Positions 1 through 318 of a stretch of DNA of 320 bases are shown in pieces. Position numbers and translations under genes: made by a program. The notes under the pieces were generated by a model, which saw nothing but the letters and a program-made list of their open reading frames with translations, was not told where the DNA came from and made no database searches. Origin of the DNA: Escherichia coli (GTDB lineage Bacteria > Pseudomonadota > Gammaproteobacteria > Enterobacterales > Enterobacteriaceae); the NCBI RefSeq assembly GCF_003334255.1, contig NZ_QOWU01000263.1, one strand, 5' to 3'. Each line of letters opens with the position of its first letter. The stretch's first letter is position 1.

Positions 1-4
1 TTTA

Positions 5-16
5 GGGCGCTTTTTT
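5..16. terminator. Possible distal half of an intrinsic terminator, truncated by the window edge: GGGCGC followed by TTTTTT
   Basis: On the + strand, GGGCGC (5-10) is followed directly by a T6 run (11-16). The complementary GCGCCC stem arm would lie left of position 1 and is not visible. On the minus strand the same region reads, just after the tRNA CCA, A6-GCGCCC, i.e. the A-tract side of a possibly bidirectional terminator. Only half the structure is present, so this is tentative. Confidence 0.3.
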
Positions 17-20
17 ACAT

Positions 21-96
21 TGGTGGGTCGTGCAGGATTCGAACCTGCGACCAATTGATTAAAAGTCAACTGCTCTACCAACTGAGCTAACGACCC
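21..96 (-). tRNA. tRNA-Lys, anticodon UUU, 76 nt with genomically encoded 3' CCA
   Basis: Reverse complement of 21-96 is GGGTCGTTAGCTCAGTTGGTAGAGCAGTTGACTTTTAATCAATTGGTCGCAGGTTCGAATCCTGCACGACCCACCA. It folds as a canonical cloverleaf: acceptor stem GGGTCGT/ACGACCC (7 bp), D-arm GCTC/GAGC, anticodon stem GTTGA/TCAAT with loop CTTTTAA (U33, anticodon UUU at window 61-63, A37), T-arm GCAGG/CCTGC with loop TTCGAAT, discriminator A, CCA. Recognised from memory as the E. coli-type tRNA-Lys(UUU) of the lysT family; the specific paralog is not assignable from sequence alone. Confidence 0.96.
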
Positions 97-144
97 ATAC
101 GGGTGTTACCTGAAAGATTTTTACTCGGGGCCAATCTTTAAGAT

Positions 145-162
145 TGGTGGGTCGTGCAGGAT
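145..162 (-). repeat. Orphan 18-nt tRNA-Lys 3'-end fragment (tRNA positions 59-76: end of T-loop, T-stem 3' strand, acceptor 3' strand, discriminator, CCA)
   Basis: 145-162 (TGGTGGGTCGTGCAGGAT) is identical to 21-38 and 243-260, the 3' termini of the two full genes. Identity stops abruptly at 163; the following sequence shows no tRNA body (no T-stem 5' strand, anticodon arm or D-arm). It therefore cannot fold into a tRNA and is a remnant, not a gene. Confidence 0.85.
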
Positions 163-242
163 GACTCGCTTCGCTCGCCCTACGGGCCGTTGCTGGCGCA
201 ACGTTATCCTTCACGCTTAACATCTGAGTTTGATGTTAAAAC

Positions 243-318
243 TGGTGGGTCGTGCAGGATTCGAACCTGCGACCAATTGATTAAAAGTCAACTGCTCTAC
301 CAACTGAGCTAACGACCC
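243..318 (-). tRNA. tRNA-Lys, anticodon UUU, 76 nt with genomically encoded 3' CCA (second copy, identical to 21-96)
   Basis: 243-318 is base-for-base identical to 21-96 (76/76). Same cloverleaf; anticodon at window 283-285. It lies upstream of the 21-96 copy in the direction of transcription. Positions 319-320 are probably the first bases of a short spacer to another upstream gene, which is not visible here. Confidence 0.96.

What the first reader, a model, noticed from the sequence alone, without database searches (positions are those of the whole stretch)
145..162. Orphan tRNA-Lys 3'-end fragment inside the inter-tRNA spacer
The last 18 nt of tRNA-Lys, including CCA, occur a third time in the spacer with no tRNA body attached. 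The flank on the far side of the fragment (135-144, tctttaagat) also resembles the trailer of the full gene at 21-96 (11-20, ttttttacat) at 7/10 positions, hinting that a tRNA 3' end plus trailer was duplicated. Such remnants are the expected footprint of unequal recombination between tandem tRNA copies. From memory, the E. coli tyrT distal region has a comparable arrangement of repeats carrying a tRNA 3'-end segment. In a transcript the fragment would give a second ACGACCCACCA 3' end that cannot be matured by RNase P, so it could matter for spacer processing. It is probably native spacer sequence, not a recent insertion.
Basis: partly seen in the sequence, partly recalled or inferred. Interest (0 to 1): 0.35.

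Follow-up and report, generated by a model that had tools for sequence, protein, structure and literature searches.

The report
RtT repeat with tRNA-Lys tail
The 18-base copy of the tRNA-Lys 3' end is real, but it is the tail of a known structured spacer repeat (RtT family) that follows the lysine tRNA genes of E. coli and its relatives, so it is ordinary and not an orphan scar.

Summary
TGGTGGGTCGTGCAGGAT occurs exactly three times (21, 145, 243), with none expected by chance.

The window is the E. coli lysT tRNA operon, with its genes on the minus strand. The copy at 145-162 is not an orphan. It is the 3' module of a ~71-98 nt RtT-type element (Rfam RF00391), the family first seen as the tyrT 178-bp repeats.

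- **Operon-wide:** every tRNA-Lys gene of the operon is followed by one such element.
- **Anatomy:** a 10-nt 5' arm pairs with the tRNA-derived tail. This stem encloses conserved hairpins and leaves ...ACCCACCA single-stranded.
- **Other tRNAs:** across 120 loci the same core is followed by the 3' end of whichever tRNA lies upstream (13 tRNA species), and the 5' arm co-varies with it.
- **Photorhabdus:** each repeat unit there is a full tRNA-Lys copy with the ~64-nt core inserted in its T-loop.
- **Polymorphism:** about a quarter of complete E. coli genomes lack the window's element by a precise 98-bp deletion between the 18-nt repeats. The operon holds 5-8 tRNA genes depending on the strain.

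The "no body attached" reading is not. The kind is already known and its function is still unknown.

The parts
243..318 (-). tRNA-Lys(UUU) gene (lysY-equivalent), the gene directly upstream of the element in the transcript
   Evidence: ARAGORN; Rfam tRNA 79.2 bits; annotated tRNA-Lys in NCTC86
216..242 (-). 5' part of the 98-bp insertion/deletion unit: a trailer-like AU-rich hairpin (GUUUUAACAUCAAACUCAGAUGUUAAG). This segment differs between copies of the operon but is orthologous in Klebsiella.
   Evidence: The RNA fold pairs 232-240 with 216-224. Comparison of E1-E4 in K-12 and Klebsiella.
206..215 (-). 5' arm CGUGAAGGAU, complementary to the first 10 nt of the tRNA-derived tail (9 of 10 standard pairs, one A.G)
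   Evidence: Fold. Pair counts on 27 short forms: 88.5% of cells paired, with compensatory GC/UA/AU at one pair. RNAalifold predicts the stem independently.
188..203 (-). Core hairpin P1, CGUUGC-GCCA-GCAACG
   Evidence: Aligned to Rfam RtT model helix CGucGC/GCgaCG; 98% paired with two compensatory pairs
177..187 (-). Core motif GCCCGUAGGGC (P2, or junction), the most conserved part of the family
   Evidence: Invariant GGCCC..AGGG in alignment A1. Used as the search motif that recovered 155 copies in 120 loci.
163..176 (-). Core 3' segment GAGCGAAGCGAGUC: a small variable hairpin (GCGAAGC) between the conserved GAG and CGAGU(C/A)
   Evidence: Alignment A1 and RNAalifold pairs 46-57 and 47-56 with compensatory changes. 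Stem variants across loci.
145..162 (-). The reported fragment, AUCCUGCACGACCCACCA: an exact copy of tRNA-Lys from the last two T-loop bases to CCA. It forms the 3' strand of the closing stem plus an 8-nt single-stranded ACCCACCA tail. It is also one of the two direct repeats that bound the 98-bp insertion/deletion unit.
   Evidence: Precise empty sites in other E. coli strains.
110..142 (-). AU-rich hairpin (CUUAAAGAUU / AAUCUUUCAG, 13-nt loop) just after the pseudo-CCA. It belongs to the original lysY-lysZ spacer, which is retained in strains that lack the element.
   Evidence: Inverted repeat I1. The same 48-nt spacer follows lysY directly in strain GN03551.
21..96 (-). tRNA-Lys(UUU), the last gene of the operon in this strain. 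It carries a lysZ-type leader and a lysQ-type trailer, so it is a recombinant of two K-12 genes.
   Evidence: compared with K-12
1..20 (-). Trailer and first half of the rho-independent terminator of the operon (AUGUAAAAAAGCGCCCUAAA...)
   Evidence: The sequence continues as aaaggcgcttttttgct in L001. Agrawal et al. describe a Rho-independent terminator on the lysT primary transcript (PMC4176162).

Best explanation
The 18 nt at 145-162 are the 3' module of a short-form RtT-type element (Rfam RF00391, the family of the tyrT 178-bp repeats), which lies in the lysY-lysZ spacer of the E. coli lysT tRNA operon.

**Shown here**
- The element is co-oriented with the tRNAs and recurs after every tRNA-Lys gene of the operon.
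- It has a conserved core of two or three hairpins.
- The core is closed by a stem between a 10-nt 5' arm and the copied tRNA tail. This mimics part of the acceptor/T-stem stack and leaves ACCCACCA single-stranded.
- The tail is always that of the neighbouring tRNA, and the 5' arm co-varies with it.
- The two 18-nt direct repeats (real tRNA end and copy) mark the endpoints of precise loss of the element.

**Inferred**
- The element is transcribed with the operon and released when the tRNAs are cut out.
- Its tRNA-like helix plus CCA makes the 3'->5' trimming enzymes stop at the pseudo-CCA, as they do on tRNA. This would leave a stable ~70-100 nt by-product RNA, as is annotated for RtT RNA in tyrT.
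- Whatever the RNA does resides in the core. Older work on tyrT suggested modulation of the stringent response.

**Origin (inferred)**
The element descends from a tandem tRNA-Lys copy whose T-loop carried the ~64-nt core and whose 5' body was later lost. Homogenisation with the neighbouring tRNA keeps the tail identical.
For: **Rfam homology**
- The RtT hit at 145-311(-) scores 54.4 bits against a gathering score of 45.
- The spacer alone scores 41.0 bits, E 2.7e-7, over model positions 46-130.
- Four RtT hits lie in the NCTC86 operon. One is already annotated 'RtT sRNA' by PGAP, 10 bp outside the window.
- Five RtT hits lie in the K-12 lysT operon and four in K-12 tyrT.

**Structure**
- The fold is -32.7 kcal/mol, z = -3.5, and the arm/tail stem appears in both the MFE and centroid structures.
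- Across 27 short forms from Lys and Arg operons of about 10 genera, 93.7% of cells are paired, against 31-52% when the partner columns are slid.
- Compensatory changes are present, including Serratia AGGAGGAU/AUCCUCCU against GGGAGGAU/AUCCUCCC elsewhere.
- Rfam's own consensus structure pairs the 5' arm with the tRNA-derived tail.
- Published covariation analysis supports the RtT structure (PMC7657543).

**Tail tracks the upstream tRNA**
- Of 102 core copies with an intact upstream tRNA, 85 have a tail identical to that tRNA through CCA, and 11 have 1-2 mismatches.
- These cover 13 tRNA species.
- The tail follows species-specific acceptor changes in Citrobacter tRNA-Lys and in an Enterobacter tRNA-Tyr.

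**RNA end**
- The K-12 rttR annotation ends exactly on the tyrT pseudo-CCA.
- RtT RNAs next to Asn and Lys tRNA genes were detected on Northern blots in Actinobacillus pleuropneumoniae (PMC4986893).

**Origin**
- Photorhabdus units are full-length tRNA-Lys copies with the core between TTCGA and AT of the T-loop.
- Other long forms keep the cognate T-arm 5' half directly upstream of the core.

**Loss and gain**
- Strain GN03551 lacks all five elements exactly.
- IMT16316 keeps only the first, and O157:H7 F3113 keeps only the window's.
Against: - No RNA data for the lysine-operon elements were found. The one detailed processing study of this operon does not mention repeats or a stable spacer RNA, and proposes that the long 3' extensions are degraded by RNase II and PNPase (PMC4176162).
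- The spacer alone scores below Rfam's gathering threshold (41.0 against 45). The above-threshold hit borrows about 13 bits from the real tRNA gene upstream.
- The Lys closing stem has an internal A.G mismatch and an 8-nt tail, not the 4-nt tail of a true tRNA end. The protection argument is therefore weaker than it is for the Arg form, which has a 12-position helix (10 standard pairs) and an ACCA tail.
- About a quarter of E. coli genomes do without the window's element. Any function is therefore dispensable, and the stem complementarity could be inherited from the ancestral tRNA helices and not selected.
- Bosl & Kersten 1991, the primary RtT paper, could not be read here.
Confidence: 0.72

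Rival explanations
1. Plain duplication scar. Unequal crossing-over between tandem tRNA-Lys genes left a stray 18-nt 3' end plus trailer in otherwise unrelated spacer. It has no structure or function of its own.
For: The trailer similarity extends the repeat to 26 nt at 92%. tRNA-Lys copy number and spacer content vary between strains, so unequal recombination does occur here.
Against: The sequence directly 5' of the fragment is a conserved core shared with the tyrT, proK, argV and many other tRNA loci. A 5' arm pairs with the fragment and co-varies with it. All five K-12 copies have the same architecture.
Confidence: 0.05
2. Selfish insertion module. The ~60-64 nt core is, or was, a mobile element that inserts at T-loop-like TCGA^A(A)TCC sites. 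The 18 nt are then simply the target flank downstream of the insertion point, and the RNA has no cellular role.
For: The same core sits at the same T-loop position next to 13 tRNA species in distant Proteobacteria. It interrupts full-length tRNA-Lys copies in Photorhabdus. It also lies inside a dispersed, non-tRNA palindromic repeat. That repeat has at least 17 copies in one MAG, and copies in Pluralibacter and Photorhabdus. E. coli members of the repeat family lack the core exactly at GCTCGA|AATCC. Filled and empty alleles in E. coli have exact boundaries.
Against: No transposase, integrase or reverse transcriptase is linked to it. Every filled/empty pair seen can equally be a deletion between short direct repeats. 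Klebsiella has the elements at orthologous positions, so the E. coli empty sites are losses, not unoccupied targets. Covarying hairpins and conserved junction bases look like a selected RNA or single-stranded DNA structure (PMC7657543). The short form also needs extra events, such as loss of the tRNA body, to be explained.
Confidence: 0.18
3. Scar of an integrated phage or island. Integrases that target tRNA genes duplicate the 3' end of the gene, so the 18-nt repeat would be an attL/attR pair around a decayed element.
For: The geometry matches formally: an intact tRNA, an intervening segment, then a direct repeat running from the T-loop to CCA. The T-loop is a known crossover site (for example mycobacteriophage Ms6, PMC1762012).
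Against: The intervening segment is only 80 nt and holds no gene. The same arrangement repeats after each of five neighbouring tRNA-Lys genes. BLAST of the element against 50,697 phage records and 72,556 plasmid records returned mostly large records that look like mislabelled chromosomal sequence (the three opened were tRNA clusters); no attP-like context was seen. One conserved core would need integrases specific for 13 different tRNAs.
Confidence: 0.02
4. Chance match or assembly artefact.
For: None.
Against: No matches appeared in 200 shuffles. The window is 100% identical to four independent complete E. coli assemblies, and 4,097 genomes hold a place covering at least 80% of the window, at about 98-100% identity in the rows sampled.
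Confidence: 0

Closest known systems
RtT RNA / tyrT 178-bp repeats of E. coli (Rfam RF00391; rttR, Bosl & Kersten 1991 as cited in PMC3318445 and PMC4986893)
   Same: It shares a homologous core (P1 hairpin, GGCCCGNAGGGCGAG, small 3' hairpin, CGAGU(A/C)). It lies downstream of a tRNA within the tRNA transcript. It ends in an exact copy of that tRNA's last 18-19 nt including CCA. A closing stem joins a 5' arm to that copy. The trailer is duplicated after the copy.
   Different: The window's element is a short form of ~71 nt from arm to CCA. It lacks roughly model positions 15-60, the T-arm-like segment, and carries a tRNA-Lys tail in place of a tRNA-Tyr tail. Alone it scores 41 bits, below the gathering score. 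There is no tpr-like ORF. No RNA product has been shown for it.
Duplicated tRNA 3' ends at integration sites of phages and genomic islands (att sites; for example Ms6 in the tRNA-Ala T-loop, PMC1762012)
   Same: It has a direct repeat of the tRNA gene from the T-loop to the 3' end, an intact tRNA on one side, and a precise 'empty' allele in other strains.
   Different: The intervening DNA is 80 nt with no integrase or cargo. The arrangement is repeated at five adjacent genes. The intervening sequence is a conserved structured core shared across tRNA species.
tRNA acceptor/T-arm minihelices and tRNA-like 3' domains (tmRNA tRNA-like domain, viral tRNA-like structures); from general knowledge
   Same: A helix built from acceptor- and T-stem strands ends in a single-stranded NCCA. 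In the tRNA-Arg short forms the helix has 12 positions (10 standard pairs and two mismatches) with a 4-nt ACCA tail.
   Different: In the Lys form only 9-10 pairs remain and the tail is 8 nt. A large structured insert replaces the T-loop. No aminoacylation or RNase P cleavage is known or expected.
Functional tRNA spacer RNAs of E. coli (3'ETS-leuZ and the metZ-metW spacer acting as sRNA sponges; recalled from memory, Lalaouna et al. 2015, not checked here)
   Same: These are by-products of tRNA operon processing that persist and may act in trans.
   Different: They have no sequence or structural relation. They act by base-pairing with Hfq-bound sRNAs, and nothing of that kind is shown for RtT elements.
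Small palindromic intergenic repeats / MITE-like elements of Proteobacteria (REP/BIME, ERIC and similar)
   Same: The RtT core also occurs inside a dispersed palindromic repeat with long flanking inverted repeats, in several Proteobacteria.
   Different: The window's copy is tRNA-linked and tandemly organised. Its flanks are dictated by the neighbouring tRNA. Rfam's RtT model does not reach its threshold on the dispersed copies.

Membership tests
RtT RNA (Rfam RF00391) | Covariance-model score at or above the curated gathering score (45 bits) | tested here: inconclusive
   The hit at 145-311(-) scores 54.4 bits. However, model positions 1-58 are aligned onto the real tRNA-Lys gene, with a 44-nt insert in between. 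The spacer alone (145-242) scores 41.0 bits, E 2.7e-7, as a 5'-truncated match to positions 46-130.
RtT RNA (Rfam RF00391) | Lies within a tRNA operon, downstream of and co-oriented with a tRNA gene | tested here: met
   It lies between two tRNA-Lys genes of the lysT operon on the same strand. The operon is one polycistronic transcript (PMC4176162).
RtT RNA (Rfam RF00391) | 3' end is a copy of the last ~18-19 nt of the upstream tRNA, including CCA | tested here: met
   The match to tRNA-Lys is exact over 18 nt. The same rule held in 85 (plus 11 near-identical) of 102 copies next to 13 tRNA species.
RtT RNA (Rfam RF00391) | Closing helix between a 5' arm and the tRNA-derived 3' segment (the outer stem of the Rfam consensus) | tested here: met
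   CGUGAAGGAU/AUCCUGCACG forms 9 of 10 standard pairs and appears in the MFE and centroid folds. Covariation and slide controls support it, and RNAalifold predicts it.
RtT RNA (Rfam RF00391) | Conserved core hairpin and GGCCCGNAGGGCGAG junction | tested here: met
   Aligned with high posterior probability to model positions ~66-100. Invariant columns in alignment A1.
RtT RNA (Rfam RF00391) | Full-length 5' half (model positions ~15-60, T-arm-like AAGGUUCGA segment) | tested here: not met
   This segment is absent from the spacer. The 5' arm abuts P1 directly. The element is therefore a short-form variant of the family.
RtT RNA (Rfam RF00391) | Released from the primary transcript as a discrete stable RNA | not testable with these tools
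   There are no expression data for this copy. Indirect support: the rttR annotation ends on the pseudo-CCA in tyrT, and Klebsiella RNA-seq counts reads on Rfam-annotated RtT features of 166-170 nt. From their size and locus numbering (an inference) these are the lysine-operon hits and would overlap tRNA-Lys.
Integrative-element att scar | Integrase or other element genes, or their remnants, between the direct repeats | tested here: not met
   Only 80 nt separate the repeats. There is no credible ORF. No phage or plasmid relative was found apart from mislabelled chromosome pieces.
Integrative-element att scar | Direct repeat of the tRNA 3' end flanking the inserted DNA, with a precise empty allele | tested here: met
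   The 18-nt repeats lie at 145-162 and 243-260. Exact empty sites occur in GN03551, IMT16316 and others. This feature alone is not specific to integrative elements.
tRNA gene or pseudogene | Recognisable cloverleaf (acceptor, D, anticodon and T arms) | tested here: not met
   ARAGORN and the Rfam tRNA model find nothing at 145-242. Only the Photorhabdus relatives retain a full tRNA-Lys body.

The most novel reading that the evidence does not exclude
The RtT core may be a discrete ~60-64 nt insertion module specific for T-loop-like TCGA^A(A)TCC sites, whether a mobile element or an intron-like insert. On this reading RtT 'repeats', including the window's 18-nt tail, are what remains of tRNA genes that were hit by it.

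Three observations fit this reading:
- Photorhabdus arrays hold up to 14 full-length tRNA-Lys copies, each split in the T-loop.
- The same core lies at the same position next to 13 tRNA species.
- The core sits inside a dispersed palindromic repeat whose E. coli members lack it at exactly that site.

I found no description of this reading in the literature I could search.
Probability: 0.25. Interest if true: 0.7.

Novelty: already known. Interest (0 to 1): 0.3.

Why it matters
For the scan, this closes the finding. The 'orphan' tRNA end is a member of a catalogued family (RtT), not a new feature.

For biology, the family itself is still unexplained more than 30 years after its description. Three facts assembled here make it easier to test:
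- Natural E. coli strains carry exact scar-free 'empty' alleles of each lysine-operon element. This offers ready-made controls for any function in tRNA processing, tRNA-Lys supply or the stringent response.
- The tail always matches the neighbouring tRNA and the 5' arm co-varies. This points to the tRNA-like helix plus CCA as the feature under constraint.
- The Photorhabdus units show that the family can be read as tRNA genes with a structured insert in the T-loop. This raises the question of whether the core is a mobile or intron-like module.

Tried and rejected
- **Phage or plasmid origin.** BLAST of the 98-nt element against the phage and plasmid collections returned mostly large records that look like mislabelled chromosomal sequence. 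I opened three: a Salmonella 'phage' contig, an E. coli 50-kb 'plasmid' and a Klebsiella 14-kb 'plasmid'. They turned out to be the proK, valU-lysV and serV-argV tRNA clusters. These were useful as extra RtT examples but give no support for an attP origin.
- **Viral contig scan.** Every one of the 124 pattern occurrences I examined in the fetched stretches was a chance match, many of them in collagen-like G-P-Q-G-E coding repeats. The pattern was too unspecific, so the scan is uninformative.
- **Promoter, terminator and ORF checks.** The window has no sigma-70-like site, no sense-strand terminator, and only short ORFs that overlap the tRNAs. I rejected an internal promoter and a tpr-like peptide.
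- **Coupled loss of RtT elements.** Strains without the window's element still show one partial RtT-type match at about 1.2-1.3 Mb, which is probably (by position only, not checked) the tyrT locus. Loss of the lysine-operon copies therefore does not look like genome-wide loss of RtT elements; this was not tested per genome.
- **Literature.** I found no paper describing the lysine-operon spacers as repeats or as RtT. The RNase P study of this operon is silent on them. Bosl & Kersten 1991 (PMC329039) is not held. A CCA-selective tRNA library paper does not report spacer reads.
- **Naming the E. coli ~121-bp repeat.** It has no annotation in K-12 and no Rfam family, and the repeat survey I read does not list it. 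I left it unnamed.
Full report
**What is in the window**

The 320 bases are 100% identical to the E. coli NCTC86 chromosome. All 5,426 complete E. coli genomes hold matches to the window (mainly its tRNA-Lys genes), and 4,097 hold a place covering at least 80% of it. They lie in the lysT tRNA operon between cpoB and nadA, and the genes are on the minus strand of the window. ARAGORN and Rfam find tRNA-Lys(UUU) at 243-318 and 21-96. Bases 1-20 are the trailer and the first half of the operon's terminator.

**The observation**

TGGTGGGTCGTGCAGGAT is the reverse complement of the last 18 nt of tRNA-Lys including CCA. It occurs exactly at 21, 145 and 243, and none of 200 shuffles gave a match. It extends the repeat to 26 nt at 92%.

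**The fragment is not alone**

It matches 145-311(-) at 54.4 bits against a gathering score of 45. In that alignment the 5' half of the model is laid over the real tRNA gene, followed by a 44-nt insert. I therefore searched the spacer alone. It still gives 41.0 bits (E 2.7e-7) as a 5'-truncated match to model positions 46-130. The homology is real, and the element is a short form that lacks the first part of the model.

Reading the whole operon shows that the element recurs:
- In NCTC86 every tRNA-Lys is followed by such an element ending in the same 18 nt. The copy after the terminator is already annotated 'RtT sRNA' by PGAP, 10 bp outside the window.
- K-12 has five copies, which I call E1-E5. 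The window's copy is E3, in the lysY-lysZ spacer.
- The K-12 tyrT locus has four RtT copies at 133-137 bits. The annotated rttR RNA ends exactly on the pseudo-CCA.

**Anatomy (minus strand)**

| Window position | Feature |
|---|---|
| 242-216 | AU-rich hairpin, different in each copy |
| 215-206 | 5' arm CGUGAAGGAU |
| 203-188 | Hairpin CGUUGC-GCCA-GCAACG |
| 187-177 | GCCCGUAGGGC |
| 176-163 | GAGCGAAGCGAGUC |
| 162-145 | The tRNA-derived tail |

The arm pairs with the first ten bases of the tail (9 standard pairs and one A.G). This encloses the core and leaves ACCCACCA single-stranded. The fold has -32.7 kcal/mol and z = -3.5.

I aligned 27 short forms from Lys and Arg tRNA operons of about ten genera.
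- 93.7% of cells are paired, against 31-52% when the 3' partners are slid by 1-3 columns.
- One pair of the closing stem switches between GC, UA and AU.
- RNAalifold predicts the same closing stem and hairpins without being told.
- Within the tRNA-Arg context, Serratia has AGGAGGAU/AUCCUCCU where the others have GGGAGGAU/AUCCUCCC.
- In the Arg form the arm reads GCACCAG|GGAGG, against the tRNA's GCAUCCG (acceptor) and GGAGG (T-stem). This gives a 12-position minihelix (10 standard pairs, two mismatches) with a 4-nt ACCA tail.

One caution applies. Complementarity could be inherited from the helices of an ancestral tRNA and not selected. The compensatory cases argue for constraint but are few.

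**Generality**

- 102 copies had an intact same-strand tRNA upstream.
- In 85 of these the sequence after ...AUCC is identical to that tRNA's 3' end through CCA. In 11 it differs by 1-2 bases, and in 6 it is unrelated.
- Thirteen tRNA species are involved: Lys, Tyr, four Arg, two Pro, two Gln, Glu and two Ser.
- The hosts are Enterobacterales plus Thioalkalivibrio, Alishewanella, Salinisphaera and several gammaproteobacterial MAGs.
- The tail follows species-specific acceptor-stem changes in Citrobacter tRNA-Lys and in an Enterobacter tRNA-Tyr.
- Identity usually runs a few bases into the trailer, with a median of 5.

**Origin**

In Photorhabdus caribbeanensis the same cpoB-linked locus carries two intact tRNA-Lys genes followed by 14 tandem RtT units. 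Each unit is a full-length tRNA-Lys copy with a 64-nt insert between TTCGA and AT of the T-loop, then AUCCUGCACGACCCACCA and a trailer. ARAGORN even calls some of these units tRNA-Lys in related Photorhabdus loci (L149, L232).

A local alignment test shows how much tRNA body survives in each type:

| Form | tRNA sequence retained upstream of the core |
|---|---|
| Photorhabdus-type loci (6 loci) | Full tRNA-Lys body, z > 30 |
| Other long forms | Only the cognate T-arm 5' half, directly upstream of the core |
| Short forms | None |

I therefore read RtT elements as tRNA gene copies with a structured insert in the T-loop, in various states of 5' decay. The window's 18 nt would be the surviving 3' part. 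This is an inference. A chimera formed by recombination in the Photorhabdus lineage is not excluded.

**Dynamics**

Strain GN03551 has the same seven tRNA genes, but its spacers are 35/51/48/33 nt, against 135/149/146/132 in K-12. At each site the tRNA's CCA is followed directly by the sequence that follows the pseudo-CCA in K-12. The post-terminator copy E5 is also absent. The window's element is thus an exact 98-bp insertion/deletion unit bounded by the two 18-nt repeats.
- 1,329 of 5,426 complete genomes lack a place covering at least 80% of the window. In the evenly spaced sample, most of these rows are the low-coverage class to which GN03551 belongs.
- Intermediate alleles exist. IMT16316 keeps only E1. 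O157:H7 F3113 has five tRNA genes and keeps only E3. MS 110-3 has eight tRNA genes and no element.
- The window strain has lost the lysZ-E4 unit: its last tRNA has a lysZ leader and a lysQ trailer.
- Klebsiella pneumoniae has E1-E4 at orthologous positions, some with decayed tails. Citrobacter and Pluralibacter also carry short forms after tRNA-Lys genes. The E. coli empty sites are therefore losses.
- tyrT-type RtT is present in 4,726 genomes. Strains that lack the lysine-operon copies still have a single partial RtT match at about 1.2-1.3 Mb, so the losses do not look like a genome-wide event.

**How it most likely works**

The element is shown to be part of the polycistronic lysT transcript region (PMC4176162). 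It has a conserved, covarying structure whose 3' strand is the tRNA tail. It is inferred that cleavage of the flanking tRNAs releases it, and that 3' trimming stops at the helix-plus-CCA as on a tRNA. This would give a stable by-product like the tyrT RtT RNA.

The role of the core is unknown. Secondary sources report that RtT RNA modulates the response to amino-acid starvation. Against this model, no RNA evidence exists for the lysine copies, and the processing study assumes that the long 3' extensions are simply degraded. The element is also dispensable in many strains.

**Rivals**

- A bare duplication scar is contradicted by the conserved core and arm.
- An integrase scar is contradicted by the 80-nt size, the fivefold recurrence, and the absence of phage or plasmid relatives.
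- A selfish T-loop-targeting insertion module is not excluded. It is the most novel reading and is described under the next heading.

**The core also occurs away from tRNAs**

At least 17 dispersed copies in one MAG, plus copies in Photorhabdus cinerea and Pluralibacter, carry the core inside a larger palindromic repeat. Every E. coli genome holds a median of 4 copies (range 1-7) of a related repeat, about 121 bp in the copy I examined, in the pheS-pheM spacer. That E. coli copy lacks the 60-nt core precisely at GCTCGA|AATCC, a T-loop-like site. The repeat is unannotated and has no Rfam family.

**Comparison with what is known, and novelty**

The finding is a short-form member of the RtT family.
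- Rfam-based pipelines already label such copies. PGAP does so in this genome.
- A Klebsiella study lists RtT features of 166-170 nt. Their size and interleaved locus numbers suggest they are the lysine-operon copies.
- Published covariation work supports the family's structure.

I rate the finding as already known, with low to moderate interest. The T-loop-insert reading and the exact filled/empty alleles may be new, but I could not check the older tyrT literature.

Noticed in passing
L010 (NZ_CP147535.1, E. coli GN03551) 1092-1795; also L251, L252, L253: All five RtT-type elements of the lysT operon are exactly absent in GN03551, with spacers of 35/51/48/33 nt. Other strains keep only E1 (IMT16316) or only E3 (O157:H7 F3113). 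The operon holds 5-8 tRNA genes. 1,329 of 5,426 complete genomes lack a place covering at least 80% of the window.
   Followed up: yes
window 1-96 compared with L004 (K-12) 1070-1390: The window strain (NCTC86) has six tRNA genes in the operon, against seven in K-12. Its last tRNA-Lys has the lysZ leader and the lysQ trailer, so one tRNA-Lys/RtT unit (lysZ-E4, 208 bp) was removed by recombination between identical tRNA genes.
   Followed up: yes
L151 (Photorhabdus caribbeanensis) 5238-7990; also L149, L150, L232, L233: Downstream of cpoB, two intact tRNA-Lys genes are followed by 14 tandem ~175-bp RtT units and a truncated 15th. Each unit is a full-length tRNA-Lys copy with a 64-nt insert in the T-loop (TTCGA|insert|AT). 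Some units show decay of the acceptor 5' strand.
   Followed up: partly
L132-L148 (MAG 'Proteobacteria bacterium SZAS LIN-96'); L162; L202; L204; L236-L250: The RtT core also occurs away from tRNA genes, inside a dispersed palindromic repeat with long flanking inverted repeats. One MAG holds at least 17 copies. Rfam's RtT model does not reach its threshold on the copies tested.
   Followed up: partly
L254 601-721 (E. coli pheS-pheM spacer); alignment A2: An unannotated intergenic repeat (about 121 bp in this copy) is present 1-7 times (median 4) in every E. coli genome. It is the same family as the Pluralibacter and Photorhabdus dispersed element, but lacks the 60-nt RtT core exactly at GCTCGA|AATCC, a T-loop-like sequence. 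I could not put a name to it.
   Followed up: partly
L001 2334-2520 (just outside window position 1); L006 2890-3080: The terminator plus trailer (atgtaaaaaagcgccctaaaggcgcttttttgct) is duplicated on both sides of the long-form RtT that follows the last tRNA-Lys. The same arrangement follows lysV in the valU operon.
   Followed up: partly
window 254-311 (minus strand) within Rfam hit 145-311: The above-threshold RtT hit aligns the 5' half of the model to the genuine tRNA-Lys gene. Rfam-based annotation of these short forms (166-170 nt features) therefore overlaps real tRNA genes. Read counts on such features may be tRNA reads.
   Followed up: yes
window 110-142: An AU-rich hairpin (10-bp stem, 13-nt loop) lies directly after the pseudo-CCA. 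It belongs to the ancestral 48-nt lysY-lysZ spacer and is kept in strains without the element. Its role, perhaps as a processing site, was not examined.
   Followed up: no
window 167-173 (GCGAAGC); variants in L131-L250: The small 3' hairpin of the core is often GCGAAGC, which I recall as the very stable mini-hairpin described for single-stranded DNA. Its stem varies with compensatory changes across loci (GCGCAGC, CCACGCAGUGG, GCCGCAGGC, CCGCGGAUGCGG).
   Followed up: partly
L009 (Salmonella Infantis) 1157-1690; L005: tRNA-Pro(CGG) (proK) is followed by two and a half tandem long-form RtT units. Each contains a copy of the terminator and ends in the tRNA-Pro tail, and the last unit is cut short. 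In L005 the tail lacks CCA.
   Followed up: partly
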